64,000 bases of DNA from Perna viridis (lineage: Eukaryota). This document shows positions 22,501 through 28,500 of the stretch, piece after piece. Position 1 is the first letter of the stretch; every line of letters starts with the position of its first letter. Position numbers: made by a program. The stretch spans positions 30,014,862 through 30,078,861 of the forward strand of contig CM074511.1 of the NCBI GenBank assembly GCA_037379345.1, given 5' to 3'.

Positions 22501-25500
22501 AAAAAAAAAAAAAAAAAAACAACAGTGGAAACGAACAGACAGAGGTATTTGTTATTTAAGTGTAAGTTTTTGTACGAACCAGAAACACGCATGTCTGAAA
22601 CTCACCAACTCACCAACCTGACAATACAATTATTCAAGGATGCTTTTGCTATTGAAAAATACTTTTATTTGACCTCTGCATCATTGGATTTGCTTAACAA
22701 AATCTTTCAACAAAATGTAAGAAAATGATATTTTTGGCAGAGGTATATGCCCCTAAAATATTCATTTTTATTTCTTTCCAATGAAATTACAACTCAATTT
22801 ACCAAAATGATATGGAAACATTATCTTTTTTCCTTGGTTCCGATGGTGCCAATTGTCAGCTCAAACTTTCAAAATGTGCCTTTTTTATACCTTTCTCTCC
22901 CTCTGTCTAATTCTTATATAGACTGATAACTACTTTACATTATTCAGTGTTAAAAAAGGGAGTTAGAAGCATACATGAGGACAAACCAATTCGGTAAAAG
23001 TTTTTTTTTTCTTTTTTTGCTTTTGTTTTATTCTCTCAAAGGAAGTTAATCTAGAACTCCGTTATCTATTTATAACTCTGCCTAATACTAATCAATTCGA
23101 CGAAACAATCATTAAACAATGCGTTAATTGTACAAGTATCTATTTGGTTTACATGAAATTGACTAGATTTACATTTTATTTTTTTTTCATTTCATAATTA
23201 CAAAATGATTTGTCAAGGCCTTTATTGTACAGGTATGCGTTTGATGCTCGTGGAATTGAGAAGTTTTATATGTTTTCCATGATAAATTCCAGATAAGGTG
23301 GATGCAGCTAATAACAGGTCTATAGACGATTTTATGAAAGAACTACATGGTATGTTGTATTTATTTTCTTCTCTTACATTCTAACAATCGTTGACTGTAA
23401 ATATTTCAAAAGAAGTATGATCTTTTTCTTTCCTACATGTTCAATAATGATACATATTCAGAGAAGGTCTCTTCTTGAATGTTCCAAGAAGTTGTCATTG
23501 AAATTTACTATGCATGTTTTGAATTCTAACACAGCCTCTGTCCTCGTACAATAAATTTATTGTCTAAATATAGTAGATAATATTTGTGTTATCATTCCTT
23601 TTACAAAACGTTTTTTGTATAATAACATTGAAATAATAACGAAAAACATTTACTCATATCAATGAATTACTATATTTTTGGAAATTGCATGCAGACGCTT
23701 TTAGTTCATTAAATGTTTAATTCTATCATGTCAGTTTATAAAGAGAAAAACTGATATGGTTAAAGGTTACAAATGGACTTTCAACGTATAATCTAAATAC
23801 TAAATAGTAAATACTTACAAATCTCCAGTAAATGTAAAAAACACCTTTGATAAGCTCTTAGGTAAGGGTCCCGTTAACAAAATGTAATATCCACGGTAAT
23901 TGAATGATGACAATTCTTCATAAGCAAACGAGAAAAAAAATATAACGACACAGGGTCAAATTAATGACCAACATCACCTGACTGTCAAAAGGCACCTAAC
24001 ATGAATAAGTTCATTCAAAAATATACCAAATTCTTACATGGGGTACTTTAACATCCAACATATAGACAAAATAAAATGTCCACTTAAAGAACGCTCGCAG
24101 TAACTGAATGCATGCTAAAACACATTAAAGACTGACCACACCATGAAAACTATTACATTAGAAATAATCGGTCACTGCGTACAATTCAAATCGACTGGAT
24201 TTGGACTAGTAACGTTAAATACCAAATTAACAAGAACTTTCATCTGTGGCAACATCCCTTCAGCACCTGTGTATGGAGTGTTCATATCACAACTTATACG
24301 TTATGCCAGAGCTTGCCGAAACTACGCAGACTTTTTGTATCGCACTAGAACTCTAACAAATAGGCTTCTGGAACAGGGTTTTGTTGCTACAAGATTGAAG
24401 TCATCACTACAGAAGTTCTATGGTCGTCATCATGAACTCGTGAATCGTTATGGTGTATCCATCTGCACCATGAAAACTGATTTATTCAACGGGTCATAGT
24501 TTTCCGTTCCTCGTTTGTCTACCCTGGACTTGACTTTTATGAGCAACTCGGCGGGTGTTTCTAGAAAAGCAGAGGACGCTTACCCTACCTCTGCACCTGG
24601 TCCATGCTCCCAGTTTTTAGTGGAGTTGCTCATTTGCTTTTGTTACTTTGTATGTATGATTTTAGTTACTGTATGTTCTTTGTTGTGTATGTCTGTTTTC
24701 CATGTCGGGTCTTTGTCCCTGGATTATATTCCTTTGATTACCGCTATAACCTTTGTTCCCTTGACTACTCTTTGAAGTAGTGCAATACTAGACAAAAATA
24801 TGAGTTTTGTTCATGTAGGTTTGCAAAATGGGTGTAAATCTCTATTTGTGAAATCACGATTCAAAGAATAGACAATAAATTGATAATCGTATTCTTTATT
24901 AATAAATATATTAAGGACCGTCGATAAAATGATAGGGTTTTGTTTGAAAGAATGTGCTTTATAGACTTTCTTCTGTGGAAAACAATTTTTAATTAAGAAA
25001 CTGCAAGTGTTATTAGATTTTTATATCAAAGTATTGCAACGATGAAAACAGTTAGGAATTCTTGGTAACGATTTGAATGCTTAATTTATAATTCATTCTT
25101 AACTATAATAATCTCGAAGATCATATAAACAAGCAAATTGTGGGTTTCATATTGAAATCTTACTGTATTAATTTATATAGATAATCACCCACATTTATAA
25201 AGACGATATAAATTTCAGGGTCATGTCTAGGGGTTAACCCTGAAACACAGCCAGATGAATTATTGAAATATTCAACGATCATTTTTAATCGTAAGTTGTT
25301 TTTATATTTGTAATGGATGTAACATATACATGTAGCTCCACACAAATAAATGATTGATAGCCTCTTATACTGACTTTCATGCATGTAATAATAAAAACGT
25401 TGCTTTAGTTCTGGAATATAAAATTAATTTCAACGCTGGACATTGTCCCTAACCTTCCTCTATTAATAGATTTATGGTCCGTTTCATGCATTTATGACTT

Positions 25501-28500
25501 TATTCGTTTATTATTTGCATACATTGTATTACCGTTTATGCGTCTGCGCTGTGTTTGTTGTTTTTATCGACCAATATTTCCCTTTCTCTTTCTCTTCTTT
25601 TTATTTTATTCTATACCATCAAAATCTTCTTTCTGTAAAGAAAAAAAACATATTTTATATTTAATTTACGTAGACAAAACAATTGTGATGTATTTAAGTT
25701 TATAACAACTTGTTGGTTACATGGTTTATATAAAACTAAAGTCTAATCAGTACATTTGCAGACTATAGCAAAACAGACAGGAGAGAATCTAACCACCCTA
25801 ACTTAACCTTTAGCACAATTCATTGACAAACGACTGAGACACGATATTGAAACTGTCATTATAATTTGGAAGTGTTAAATGATAAGGATGCTGTGGTTTA
25901 TAATACGATAACAGACTGGACAATGATTAATGTTTGCTAAAGTAATTAACAAACATCATTATGCAACGCATAGATGAAAACAAAATTTAAAAATATTAAT
26001 CTACAAATTATTGAATTTCGTCATATATGTTGAATTGCCAACAAATTCATCAAGGGTCGAATCCACTCTCAACAAATAATAAAATACTAACTTGCATAGC
26101 CTGCATGATAAATATATTAATTCAGAGTTTAATCATTTGTAATGAAATAACTTGTTTTATGTAACCAATTTATACTTATTTCAAAGTTCGTTATAAAGGA
26201 ACTCAAGCGATTTTGTACTCTTCATTTTCTTTCAGGAATAAGAATTTACAAAGAAGCATTGGACATGAAGAGAAAAATTGTGAAAGAAGTGCAAGAAGTT
26301 TTTGACGGTAGGAATGAGTGTTCAGTACTTGATAGAAAATGTTGCTATTACCACATGACGGGTAAATCTTGTGAATGCATAATTTCACAGCTTGGTCTTT
26401 GAATACAGGCATTAAAGTTTCGCGGTCATTATTTATCGCGTCTATAGAAAGAGTTTTCATTCCCCTCCAGAGATCCCCAATTCTCCCGAAACAAGCGAAA
26501 ATTCTCGCTATACGATAATACAAACAATGGTAATATCTTCAGGTTAAAATTTTATTATTGATTTTTAACAGAGCTTTGTGAAACCTTAATTCTAGAGGAT
26601 CTTGAGCCACCTATTTTTTATATGGCTTTAATTATTAAAAACTCGACATACCATTGTATTTTTAAACTATATAAATTACCTAGAAGATCTACTCAAGTGG
26701 AACGTTAGTAAATTTTAAATTACATAAATTGTTTTCACTATATTTTGTTATTAATTTTATTGACAGTAACATGGGATGCCACAGAATTCGAACAGGTCTA
26801 CAATGTAATGATTAGAGATTCTAAAGGTTGTTCATATTACATTTTTTTATCTTTCACAGTACACCGTTAATCTAAAAAATAAAACGTTGTAATTTCGAAA
26901 AGTTGTATTCAATTACGAAGAAAAAACAAAGAAAACACGATAAAGAGAAAAAAGGAAACCAAAATGTTCGGTCTAGGGGCCGTCATCTTAGGTGAATCGC
27001 ATTTCACGAGAGGAGAAACAGAACTGTAGACCCAGAAGAAACTCAAATGATAATGGGAGTGGATAAGATTCTTAATGTTGTGCATTTAAGTATGCATGTA
27101 TATAATTGGCTACCATGACAACAACAACAATGACAACATGGTATGATTTTGAATAGGTCGCTACATGTTCATCTTAAAATAAATACTATATTAAACTACT
27201 GCCATTAGCTTGTTTTCGCACGAGATGTATTTTCATGAACAACAAAACAATTCGGAAAAAAAGAATAGCGGCAACAAAATCTCTTTATAACACATAGTTT
27301 GGTCAAAATATTAAATAGCCGCGAAATTGGATAGACATCCCAAATCGCACAAATAAAAATAAATAAATCGGAATACATTATTCTTCTTAAAATAATTCAG
27401 GTGTGTTCGTTTATAACAATGAAAGCACATTTTGATATTTATACAATCGTAATATGTTCATAGTAAGTATGAATTAAATTTCTAGTATTTTTCTATACTA
27501 TTGACCAAATCAGTTTTATTTGCCCTATTGAAGAAGTCTGCCAGGTTCATGACTGTAGTGACATACAACCAAGGACTACAGGTCCACATAAAATACACGC
27601 AAAAGGACCGACGTCCTTTCTAGTCACGTGTAATATGGATGTAGACGGAGGTAACTGGACGGTAAGATTCTTTTTAGGAAACAATATCGATAGCAAAAAC
27701 TATTTAATATGAATATTAAGATATTTTTTTTTATTTAATTTCATTTAATATATCACATATGTCCCATTCCAGTTAAAACTTGAAAACCTTTCATTTCGTT
27801 CGAAAAATAGATGCATTTATGAAACCATATATACAAGTTGTATTATCAGCATATATTCGATTTTGTTGTATTGTTTTACAGTCAAAACAACCAACTAACG
27901 TTTAAACAAAATTATTTCAAAATTACTTTTTTCACTTACTTTTCTAAGAATGCAAAAACACTATAAATGTTGAAAACTCAAAAAGATGAAATGTAAAACG
28001 AAATAATCTGCGACGTATTTGTGAATAGACACAAATTTAATTATATAGCTATTTTCCAGGATTCCATCATATGTATTTTTTACTCAGTTCATATATTTTA
28101 GATCTTGTTTTTCTGTGCGCTTCGAAGGTGGCACAGCAATTGCTCATCGAATAAATTCTTTTACATTTCGCTCTTTTTAGGTTATTCAACAACGACAGGA
28201 TGGATCTGTAGATTTTAAGAGGACATGGCAAGAGTACAAAGACGGTTTTGGAAATCCAGAAGGGGAACTGTGGCTAGGTAATAACTATCCTTTACAAGCT
28301 TTTAACGACAAAAATATTTATTACAAAATAAAACTGTCGATTTTATTTAACATACTATTGAGTGAAAGGACACGGCCACAGCACATATTTCAGCAAGGCC
28401 TATGTAAATAATTTCCTGGCACACTGGTATCCCTCTAGTAATAAGATATTATGTGCCCTCTCTGTACATACAATATCTGTACTACAGAGTAGGAAAAATA

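What the first reader, a model, noticed from the sequence alone, without database searches (positions are those of the whole stretch)
23293..27545. Unrecognised about 90-aa N-terminal domain defines this FReD subfamily
Seen: between the signal peptide and FBG, all copies have a region with no Gly-X-Y collagen (ficolins) and no Ig pattern (gastropod FREPs). Conserved features: an N-glycosylation sequon at one position in all five copies with exon 2 (NRS A2, NKT C2, NST D, NRT B1 and B2); DxFMxEL; a Cys in G[SA]CLG/ETCIG; an amphipathic YKEALDxKRKIxxEVQExFD; TWDSxExxQ; and a second Cys 68 residues later (EVC/DMC) just before the FBG DCS motif. Inference: a compact disulfide-clamped helical bundle or oligomerisation neck, possibly an undescribed domain architecture among bivalve immune lectins.
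Basis: partly seen in the sequence, partly recalled or inferred. Interest (0 to 1): 0.65.

Follow-up and report, generated by a model that had tools for sequence, protein, structure and literature searches.

The report
Helical neck of tandem fibrinogen-like lectins
[quoted passage not shown] It is most likely an ordinary oligomerisation neck of a kind already described for mollusc lectins.

Summary
The window carries six + strand tandem fibrinogen-domain (FReD) genes. In the copy at 21933-34509, four short phase-1 exons (57, 72, 72 and 60 nt) plus the start of exon 6 encode about 90 residues between the signal peptide and the FBG domain.

The sequon is present in 5 of 5 exon-2 copies, the exon-3 Cys in 5 of 5, and the second Cys in 4 of 4 exon-6 copies. 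The 68-residue spacing holds in 3 of 3 testable copies. Non-synonymous change is well below synonymous change (pN 0.29, pS 0.65), so the region is under selection.

Searched exon by exon, exons 2-5 match nothing credible in Pfam or the PDB. Sequence periodicity and exon-level folds indicate one long amphipathic helix of about 33-37 residues with a 4-3-4-3 hydrophobic stripe, flanked by shorter helices and by the two Cys.

Signal peptide plus a short coiled-coil-like region plus one FBG is the architecture already described for mollusc FReDs. I therefore read it as a lineage-specific oligomerisation neck, not a new architecture.

Only two of the six copies look intact. The spliced (joined) protein was not searched or folded, so the Cys-Cys distance stays untested.

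The parts
21933..22029 (+). A2 exon 1: start codon, hydrophobic signal-peptide-like stretch and about 11 further residues. The donor is phase 1.
   Evidence: An ATG ORF with a hydrophobic core and a CAAG|gtaagt donor. The homologous exon 1 of C2 is at 44236-44332 and of B1 at 9506-9602, where the donor is GA instead of GT. No signal-peptide predictor was run.
23293..23349 (+). A2 exon 2 (57 nt, phase 1-1): the conserved N-x-[ST] sequon followed by the short D-x-F-M-x-E-L segment.
   Evidence: The sequon is in 5 of 5 copies. No Pfam hit at E<=10. The PDB profile search gave only designed helical proteins and one other weak match.
25219..25290 (+). A2 exon 3 (72 nt, phase 1-1): the first conserved Cys in a Pro-containing loop, then the start of the long helix.
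   Evidence: The exon-level AlphaFold2 model has coil at residues 1-13 (pLDDT about 56) and helix from residue 14 to the end of the exon (pLDDT above 90).
26236..26307 (+). A2 exon 4 (72 nt, phase 1-1): the amphipathic helix with Y-K-E-A-L-D, the best conserved N-terminal exon.
   Evidence: Mean column identity is 73%. The hydrophobic moment peaks at 100 degrees and 14 of 2000 shuffles reach it. The exon-level model is one helix with pLDDT 91-97 over the exon.
26767..26826 (+). A2 exon 5 (60 nt, phase 1-1): the T-W-D motif and a short hydrophobic segment, out of register with the exon-4 stripe.
   Evidence: There is no significant 100-degree periodicity; 788 of 2000 shuffles reach the observed value.
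27534..27661 (+). A2 exon 6: the extra Cys (codon 27539-27541) four residues before the first canonical FBG Cys, then FBG subdomain A.
   Evidence: Pfam Fibrinogen_C profile positions 4-44 start at residue 6 of the exon peptide, so the extra Cys lies outside the match. The D-C-S Cys and the T-C-N-M-D Cys align with the first Cys pair of ficolin-1.
28181..34509 (+). A2 exons 7-9 (28181-28277, 30127-30291, 34268-34509 including the TGA stop): the rest of the FBG domain.
   Evidence: Fibrinogen_C profile positions 45-79, 82-134 and 140-219 of 221, with E-values 2.8e-12, 9.4e-14 and 5.1e-19. Splice sites were read.
45580..47512 (+). C2 exons 2-6 (45580-45639, 46081-46152, 46549-46620, 46796-46855, 47385-47512): the intact paralogue with the same N-terminal module.
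37654..40308 (+). B2 exons 2-6 (37654-37713, 38527-38598, 39428-39499, 39944-40003, 40240-40308): a pseudogene copy that still has the module.
   Evidence: Exon 6 breaks off after 23 residues, no exon 7 was found, and there are in-frame stops in e8 and e9.
12264..13266 (+). B1 exons 2-3 (12264-12323, 13195-13266): a pseudogene copy.
   Evidence: No e4-e6 was found between 13266 and 14882. There is a stop and a frame change in e7.
57951..63018 (+). D exons 2-5 (57951-58007, about 59412-59483, 62285-62356, 62959-63018). The rest of the gene is off the window.
   Evidence: Exon 3 has no GT at the homologous donor. The next GT would shift the frame into a stop at the start of e4 (my reading).
113..856 (+). 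A1 exons 4-6 (about 113-183, 486-545, 729-856): a pseudogene copy whose 5' part is off the window.
   Evidence: There are in-frame stops in e6 and e9. One nucleotide is missing near the start of e4 relative to A2.

Best explanation
The roughly 90 residues between the signal peptide and the FBG domain form a lineage-specific, mostly alpha-helical stalk, or neck.

**Layout, in order:**
1. A conserved N-glycosylation sequon.
2. A short helix (exon 2).
3. A Pro-containing loop with the first Cys (first half of exon 3).
4. One long amphipathic helix of about 33-37 residues (second half of exon 3 plus all of exon 4). It has a 4-3-4-3 hydrophobic stripe and a second hydrophobic stripe beside it.
5. 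A break at the conserved T-W-D.
6. A short helix (exon 5).
7. The second Cys, four residues before the first canonical FBG Cys.

**Proposed function.** The long helix most likely bundles two to four chains so that several lectin heads point the same way. The Cys at each end then lock the bundle by disulfides between chains. This is how coiled-coil regions work in other mollusc FReDs, in the snail FREP interceding region and in angiopoietin, and how the collagen stalk works in ficolins. Multivalency raises avidity for repetitive glycans.

**Shown here:** the exon structure, the conservation, selection, absence of any known-domain match exon by exon, helical periodicity of exon 4, and that the second Cys lies outside the FBG Cys pairs.

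**Inferred:** continuity of the helix across the e3/e4 junction, oligomerisation, which Cys pairs with which, and use of the sequon.
For: - **Gene anatomy and conservation.**
- **Purifying selection.** A2 against C2 over exons 2-5 gives pN 0.29 and pS 0.65. A2 against D gives 0.32 and 0.74.
- **Exon 4 periodicity.** The hydrophobic moment is maximal at 100 degrees, with z = 2.7 and 14 of 2000 column shuffles reaching it.
- **Exon-level AlphaFold2 models** (single sequence, with a few in-frame intron codons on each side). Exon 4 is one helix with pLDDT 91-97. Exon 3 is coil around the Cys, then helix from the P-D-E turn to the exon's last residue. The helix therefore reaches both sides of the e3/e4 junction.
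- **Hydrophobic stripe,** read with the exon lengths. It runs through exon-3 positions 15, 19 and 22 and exon-4 positions 2, 5, 9, 12, 16, 19 and 23. The spacing is 4-3-4-3-4-3-4-3-4. Eight of these ten positions are hydrophobic in all or nearly all copies, one is an invariant Lys, and one varies (S/L/L/T/A).
- **The second Cys is extra.** Pfam Fibrinogen_C starts after it. The next two Cys align with the first Cys pair of ficolin-1.
[quoted passage not shown] Scallop CfFREP has a coiled coil at 55-92 before an FBG at 104-322 (PMC11741071). [quoted passage not shown] A 35-aa coiled coil is present in FREP4, which forms multimers, and absent in FREP2, which does not (PMC7588048). Angiopoietin-1 has a coiled-coil domain, a linker and a fibrinogen-like domain; in the engineered CMP-Ang1 chimaeras of PMC4609988, Cys in the Ang1 linker and in the grafted CMP coiled coil set the oligomer state.
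Against: - Tested on exon 4 alone, an a/d heptad score is not significant; 243 of 2000 shuffles reach it. The hydrophobic face is broad, which also fits a helix buried in a globular bundle.
- Exons 2, 3 and 5 taken whole show no significant helical periodicity; 174, 270 and 788 of 2000 shuffles reach the observed values.
- The stripe does not continue in register into exon 5, so this is not one plain long coiled coil.
- The AlphaFold2 runs also made the intron-derived flanks helical. They therefore show helical bias and are weak evidence.
- No coiled-coil predictor was available.
- No model of the spliced protein was made and nothing was measured, so oligomerisation and disulfide pattern are inference.
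- An odd oligomer such as a trimer would leave Cys unpaired.
Confidence: 0.55

Rival explanations
1. This is the reader's first option: a self-contained, compact helical module closed by an intrachain disulfide between the exon-3 Cys and the Cys just before the FBG. The loop after exon 2 and the exon-5 helix would both pack back along the long helix. The module could still sit under the FBG head as a pedestal.
For: - Exactly two extra Cys are present in both intact copies, so the count is even. Their spacing is fixed at 68 in 3 of 3 testable copies.
- The hydrophobic face of exon 4 is broad, with two adjacent stripes, as for a helix packed on more than one side.
- The stripe breaks at the conserved T-W-D, which suggests a turn and a helix folding back.
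- By my length estimate, a 9-residue loop upstream and about 22 residues downstream of a roughly 55 Angstrom helix could just meet. This is inference.
Against: - The fixed spacing is a trivial result of conserved exon lengths among paralogues.
- The two Cys lie at opposite ends of a helix of about 35 residues, so closure needs both flanking segments to run back along it.
- Related FReD proteins use Cys next to coiled coils for links between chains (PMC4609988).
- No model was made.
Confidence: 0.25
2. An antiparallel dimer. Two long helices pair head to tail, so the exon-3 Cys of one chain meets the pre-FBG Cys of the other. This gives two reciprocal interchain disulfides and lectin heads at opposite ends, which would suit a cross-linking agglutinin.
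For: - One Cys lies at each end of the helical region, and both are conserved.
- The even Cys count is satisfied without higher oligomers.
- An invariant Lys sits in the hydrophobic stripe and could set the register.
Against: There is no direct evidence. In the passages I read, the stalks of FReD proteins are described as bundling heads together and not as pointing them apart.
Confidence: 0.1
3. The region is not a structural module of the mature lectin. It would be a pro-region or spacer, removed or cut at the conserved dibasic K-[RK] in exon 4, leaving a stand-alone FBG lectin.
For: - K-R or K-K occupies the same two columns of exon 4 in 5 of 5 copies.
- Many bivalve FREPs are described as containing only the FBG (PMC11741071, passage).
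Against: - The dibasic pair sits in the middle of the best-conserved amphipathic helix.
- Residues on both sides of it are under equal constraint.
- The second Cys next to the FBG would lose its partner.
- Lys and Arg are common on the polar side of amphipathic helices.
Confidence: 0.05

Closest known systems
Mollusc single-FBG FReDs with signal peptide plus coiled-coil region (for example scallop CfFREP; oyster FREPs cited there)
   Same: The order and sizes match: a signal peptide, a helical or coiled-coil stretch of about 35-38 residues ending 10-25 residues before the FBG, and one C-terminal FBG (PMC11741071; PMC8878817). The proposed role is oligomerisation in place of the ficolin collagen stalk.
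   Different: - Sequence relatedness of the N-terminal regions could not be tested, because no eukaryotic protein set was open.
- CfFREP has a second coiled coil after the FBG, which is absent here.
- The conserved Cys pair, the sequon and the four phase-1 mini-exons are not mentioned in the passages I read.
Interceding region (ICR) of Biomphalaria FREPs
   Same: [quoted passage not shown] A 35-aa coiled coil goes with multimer formation in FREP4 (PMC7588048).
   Different: Snail FREPs carry one or two IgSF domains in front of the ICR. Here nothing but a signal peptide precedes the region, and no Ig family was hit.
Angiopoietin-1 / angiopoietin-like proteins
   Same: Both have a coiled coil, then a linker with a Cys, then the fibrinogen-like domain. 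Cys residues near the coiled coil help set the oligomer state (PMC4609988, passages). Angiopoietin FBGs are among the PDB matches of exon 9, with E-values of 7e-11 to 4.9e-9.
   Different: In angiopoietin-1 the superclustering and coiled-coil domains together span 245 aa. Here the region is about 90 aa with one helix of about 35 residues, and there is no superclustering domain.
Ficolins, FIBCD1 and MFAP4 (closest solved FBG domains)
   Same: These are the best PDB matches of exon 9: MFAP4 at 4.6e-17, FIBCD1 at 8.3e-17 and ficolin-2 at about 1e-16. The first FBG Cys pair aligns with ficolin-1. All are oligomeric lectin-type FBG proteins (recalled).
   Different: Ficolins oligomerise through a Gly-X-Y collagen stalk, which is absent here. 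The N-terminal exons match none of these chains.
Short disulfide-stabilised coiled coils such as the 43-aa domain of cartilage matrix protein
   Same: It is a short helix bundle whose chains are locked by Cys next to the heptads (PMC4609988, passage). This is a working analogue for a neck of this size.
   Different: It is an unrelated protein. Its Cys lie only at the N-terminal end and it has no FBG. This is an analogy only.

Membership tests
Fibrinogen-related domain proteins (Pfam Fibrinogen_C, PF00147) | Full-length match to the FBG profile | tested here: met
   Exon by exon, A2 e7-e9 score 47-69 bits and C2 e7-e9 score 49-84 bits, against a cut-off of 22. Together with e6 (12.6 and 16.8 bits, below the cut-off), they cover profile positions 2-219 of 221 in order.
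Fibrinogen-related domain proteins (Pfam Fibrinogen_C, PF00147) | Canonical FBG Cys pairs | tested here: met
   The first pair aligns with ficolin-1 Cys. Two further Cys are in exon 9, around the G-G-W-W motif, in A2 and C2. Their pairing is assumed from the family (recalled).
Ficolins | Collagen-like Gly-X-Y repeats between the N-terminal Cys segment and the FBG | tested here: not met
   No Gly-X-Y run appears in any exon 1-5 peptide of any copy. No collagen family was hit in Pfam at E<=10.
Gastropod FREPs (IgSF + ICR + FBG) | One or two N-terminal IgSF domains | tested here: not met
   No Ig family was hit for exons 1-5 at E<=10. Only about 100 residues precede the FBG and they read as helical. 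The search was exon by exon, so a domain split over exons would be hard to see. The helical character argues against an Ig fold.
Mollusc FReDs of the type signal peptide + coiled-coil region + single FBG | N-terminal signal peptide | tested here: inconclusive
   Exon 1 of A2, C2 and B1 starts with Met and a hydrophobic stretch of about 10-12 residues. No signal-peptide predictor was available.
Mollusc FReDs of the type signal peptide + coiled-coil region + single FBG | Coiled-coil (heptad) region between the signal peptide and the FBG | tested here: inconclusive
   In favour:
- A 4-3-4-3 stripe runs over about 33 residues across e3 and e4 (read).
- Exon 4 has 100-degree periodicity, with 14 of 2000 shuffles reaching it.
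- The exon-level models are helical.

Against:
- The a/d score on exon 4 alone is not significant, with 243 of 2000 shuffles reaching it.
- No coiled-coil predictor was run, and none was run on the spliced protein.
Mollusc FReDs of the type signal peptide + coiled-coil region + single FBG | One C-terminal FBG and no other domain | tested here: met
   The stop codon follows directly after the FBG in A2 and C2.
Angiopoietin / angiopoietin-like | Long coiled-coil domain (with the superclustering domain, 245 aa in Ang1) before the linker and FBG | tested here: not met
   The whole pre-FBG region is about 100 residues after the signal peptide, by exon lengths. The Ang1 figure comes from PMC4609988.

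The most novel reading that the evidence does not exclude
The module would be a discrete, lineage-specific three-helix neck domain, not a generic coiled coil. It would be stapled by a defined disulfide, either intrachain or reciprocal between two antiparallel chains, and it would carry an obligatory N-glycan.

Each of its four exons is symmetric (phase 1-1; 57/60, 72, 72 and 60 nt), so any of them can be skipped without breaking the frame. Alternative splicing could then produce lectins with different neck lengths, Cys content and oligomer state from one gene. That would add a layer of diversification to the tandem gene expansion, in the way alternative splicing diversifies snail FREPs.
Probability: 0.15. 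Interest if true: 0.5.

Novelty: new member of a known kind. Interest (0 to 1): 0.25.

Why it matters
Fibrinogen-domain lectins are among the most expanded immune gene families of bivalves. Their sugar-binding heads are weak binders on their own, so how the heads are bundled decides what they can agglutinate or opsonise.

A defined neck with two conserved Cys, one glycosylation site and a clean exon structure gives simple handles for testing how these lectins assemble. Examples are Cys-to-Ser mutants, exon deletions and PNGase treatment.

As it stands, the finding mostly confirms the known layout of signal peptide, short helical region and FBG. It does not add a new kind of domain architecture.

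Tried and rejected
- **Known domain, Pfam.** Exon by exon at E<=10, exons 2-5 of A2 and C2 gave 0 families for 7 of 8 peptides and one noise hit (DUF3113, E 0.14, 12.6 bits against a cut-off of 25).
- **Known domain, PDB.** Five-paralogue profiles of e4 and e5 gave 0 matches at E<=10. The e3 profile gave 4 unrelated matches with E 0.18-1.3. The e2 profile gave 3 designed helical proteins, with no stretch passing on its own, and 1 other. I rejected all of these as chance or mere helix-likeness.
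- **ESM Atlas.** Searching with the exon-4 part gave a best score of 0.78 against unnamed clusters. That is below the level that shuffled proteins reach a third of the time. The first try did not complete.
- **Internal duplication of the mini-exons.** Profile-profile comparison of e4 against e3 and of e2 against e5 found no relation (probabilities 0.04 and 0.19).
- **Homo-oligomer test.** I submitted three copies of a 30-residue piece holding exon 4 plus a few in-frame intron codons. The verdict was 'no answer' (scores 0.02 and 0.03 against a mark of 0.32). This counts neither for nor against binding. The piece is only a third of the neck, and the test is calibrated on two copies and on microbes.
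- **Missing exons of B1.** A search for e4-e6 between 13266 and 14882 found none.
- **Repeat-element ORFs.** Pfam on 8 ORFs from the introns gave 0 families.
- **Literature on mussel FREP N-terminal regions.** Searches found no paper describing this module. The two Mytilus FREP papers (Gorbushin and Iakovleva 2011; Romero et al. 2011) were seen only as entries in a reference list and are not in the library.
- **Not run.**
  - The genome-contig collection holds only bacteria and archaea, so I did not use it.

Full report
**What is in the window.** The window is AT-rich (about 31% G+C) and has no N. It has the look of an invertebrate genome, with short exons, long introns and many dispersed repeats. 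Nothing in it looked human.

On the + strand lie six tandem genes with a fibrinogen-related (FBG) domain.
- A1 runs from the window start to about 5629.
- B1 runs from 9506 to about 16241.
- A2 is the copy of the finding, at 21933-34509.
- B2 runs from 37654 to about 41382.
- C2 is at 44236-51445.
- D starts at 57951 and runs off the window end.

A2 and C2 have nine exons with AG/GT at every junction and open frames to a stop codon. Exon by exon, their exons 6-9 cover positions 2-219 of the 221-position Pfam Fibrinogen_C profile in order.

**The other four copies are damaged or doubtful.**
- A1 has in-frame stops in exons 6 and 9. It retains only 28 of 54 residues of exon 8, and one nucleotide is missing near the start of exon 4.
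- B1 has GA instead of GT at the exon-1 donor and no exons 4-6. It has a stop and a frame change in exon 7.
- B2 has a truncated exon 6, no exon 7, and stops in exons 8 and 9.
- D has no GT at the homologous exon-3 donor. The next GT would shift the frame into a stop.

**The observation.** It is correct in nearly every detail. In A2 the region between the signal-peptide exon and the FBG is encoded by exon 2 (23293-23349, 57 nt), exon 3 (25219-25290, 72 nt), exon 4 (26236-26307, 72 nt), exon 5 (26767-26826, 60 nt) and the first three codons of exon 6 (from 27534). All junctions are phase 1. The other copies have the same lengths, except that exon 2 is 60 nt in B1, B2 and C2.

The per-exon alignments show:

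| Feature | Copies with it |
|---|---|
| N-x-[ST] sequon in one column of exon 2 | 5 of 5 (NRS, NRT, NRT, NKT, NST) |
| Exact D-x-F-M-x-E-L | 3 of 5 (variants in B1 and B2) |
| Exon-3 Cys | 5 of 5 |
| Y-K-x-A start of exon 4 | 5 of 5 (five invariant columns in exon 4) |
| T-W-[DS]-[SA] | 4 of 5 |
| Second Cys just before D-C-[SR] | 4 of 4 exon-6 copies present |

The spacing of 68 between the two Cys follows from the exon lengths in A2, B2 and C2, which are the 3 of 3 copies where both exons are in the window. There is no Gly-X-Y run and no Ig match. In one search the tool printed Met for the first TTG codon of C2 exon 4; the residue is Leu.

**More than chance.** The copies are old. Outside the A1/A2 pair, only exon 7 (A1 to C2) and shared repeat elements align between copies at DNA level. 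I added Nei-Gojobori counts over exons without joining them. A2 against C2 then gives pN 0.29 and pS 0.65 for exons 2-5 (41 of 83 residues identical). FBG exons 6-8 give pN 0.22 and pS 0.86 (83 of 127 identical). The N-terminal exons are therefore under purifying selection, a little weaker than on the FBG. In the sequon the Asn is invariant. The middle residue (R, K or S) and the hydroxyl residue (S or T) vary, which fits selection for the sequon itself. The S/T could also be a helix N-cap (my reading).

**Known-domain tests, exon by exon.** Every search used single exons, in some cases with one to nine in-frame intron codons to reach a size minimum.
- Pfam at E<=10 gave no family for 7 of 8 exon 2-5 peptides of A2 and C2, and one noise hit.
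- PDB searches with five-paralogue profiles gave nothing for exons 4 and 5 and only unrelated weak matches for exons 2 and 3.
- An ESM Atlas look-up of the exon-4 part scored 0.78, below chance level.
- The mini-exons are not duplicates of each other.

Peptides of 20 residues give little search power, so these negatives are weak.

**What the region looks like.** Averaged over paralogues, exon 4 has a hydrophobic moment peaking at 100 degrees; 14 of 2000 column shuffles reach it. Exons 2, 3 and 5 taken whole do not stand out, with 174, 270 and 788 of 2000 shuffles reaching their values.

Two single-sequence AlphaFold2 runs give exon-level pictures. The exon-4 reading is one helix with pLDDT 91-97 over the exon. 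The exon-3 reading is coil around the Cys with pLDDT about 56, then helix from the P-D-E turn to the exon's last residue with pLDDT above 90. The intron-derived flanks were also drawn as helix, so these runs are biased towards helix and count as weak support.

I then counted exon-local positions with the known exon lengths. One hydrophobic stripe runs through exon-3 positions 15, 19 and 22 and exon-4 positions 2, 5, 9, 12, 16, 19 and 23. The spacing is 4-3-4-3-4-3-4-3-4 over 33 residues. Eight of the ten positions are hydrophobic in all or nearly all copies, one is an invariant Lys and one is variable.

A second hydrophobic stripe lies next to the first. This is why an a/d-only score on exon 4 alone is not significant (243 of 2000 shuffles). 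The stripe does not continue in register into exon 5, where the conserved T-W-D suggests a break followed by a short helix.

**The two Cys.** The Pfam FBG match begins after the second Cys. The next two Cys of exon 6 align with the first Cys pair of ficolin-1. The second Cys is therefore additional to the FBG set. Together with the exon-3 Cys it gives exactly two extra Cys in each intact copy, one on each side of the helical region. Whether they bond within a chain or between chains could not be tested without a model of the spliced protein.

**Comparison with what is known.** All papers below were read as passages only.
- A scallop FREP has signal peptide 1-19, coiled coil 55-92 and FBG 104-322. 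The authors cite N-terminal coiled coils in oyster and prawn FREPs (PMC11741071).
- In Biomphalaria the region before the FBG has no homology to known domains. It often forms coiled coils, and a 35-aa coiled coil goes with multimer formation (PMC7588048).
- Angiopoietin-1 has coiled coil, linker and FBG, and in the engineered CMP-Ang1 chimaeras Cys in the Ang1 linker and in the grafted CMP coiled coil affect the oligomer state (PMC4609988).
- The closest solved FBG domains to exon 9 are MFAP4, FIBCD1 and ficolin-2, with E about 1e-16.

The layout here is the described one. The details that I did not see described are the conserved Cys pair, the sequon and the four symmetric mini-exons.

**Mechanism and rivals.**
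- My best reading (0.55) is an oligomerisation neck. The long amphipathic helix bundles chains, and the flanking Cys lock them between chains.
The broad hydrophobic face and the break before exon 5 fit it. By my length estimate it is geometrically possible, but only if both flanking segments run back along a helix of about 55 Angstrom.
- An antiparallel dimer with reciprocal disulfides (0.1) and a cleaved pro-region at the conserved dibasic pair (0.05) are less likely.

**Limits.**
- No eukaryotic protein or contig collection was open, so the spread of this module beyond the six paralogues is unknown.
- No coiled-coil or signal-peptide predictor was available.
- The two Mytilus FREP papers most likely to describe such N-terminal regions were seen only in a reference list.

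Noticed in passing
window 1-64000, + strand: The six FReD copies lie in the order A1, B1, A2, B2, C2, D. A1 resembles A2 (exon 6 about 80% identical in protein). B1 resembles B2 (exon 3 65% identical). This suggests duplication of a two-gene block. Three copies (A1, B1, B2) are pseudogenes with stops, lost exons or a broken donor.
   Followed up: partly
window 59483-59490 (D exon 3 donor): Copy D has no GT where the other four copies have C|gtaagt or C|gtgagt. The next GT lies five bases on and would shift the frame into a stop at the start of exon 4. D may be a fourth dead copy, an assembly error, or may use an unusual splice.
   Followed up: partly
window 2441-3615 (-), 7225-7718, 18460-19050, 19635-20427, 24119-24776 (+; inside intron 2 of A2), 29377-29487, 39075-39416, 53680-54291: A dispersed repeat with 72-94% DNA identity between copies sits in introns and spacers. 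Its longest ORFs (172 and 134 aa at 2721-3615, - strand) contain a Y-V-D-D motif that recalls reverse transcriptases (recalled). Pfam gave no family for 8 of 8 ORFs tried.
   Followed up: partly
window 22073-22926, 37769-38123, 42581-42917, 44799-44922, 52658-53035, 59069-59385: A second dispersed repeat family (66-80% identity) lies mostly in introns 1-2 of the FReD copies. Its nature is unknown.
   Followed up: no
window 44942-45142 (intron 1 of C2): A tandem array of a 21-nt unit, 9.6 copies, 73% matches. It lies inside an open frame (44865-45227, + strand) that there reads as a repeated 7-residue unit of the type x-x-x-A-Y-K-D. No Pfam match.
   Followed up: no
window 27650-27658 (A2) and 47501-47509 (C2), end of exon 6: The FBG motif that reads G-G-G-W-T in ficolin-1 is G-G-N-W-T here. 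This creates a second N-x-T sequon inside the FBG of both intact copies.
   Followed up: no
window 26268-26273 and homologous codons of exon 4 in the other copies: A dibasic pair (K-R in four copies, K-K in D) is kept in 5 of 5 exon-4 copies, in the middle of the amphipathic helix. It could be a convertase site, or simply the polar face of the helix.
   Followed up: no
row window:46551-46619: The alignment tool printed Met for a leading TTG codon because it applies table 11 start-codon handling. The residue is Leu in the script translation. This is a tool artefact to keep in mind for exon references.
   Followed up: yes
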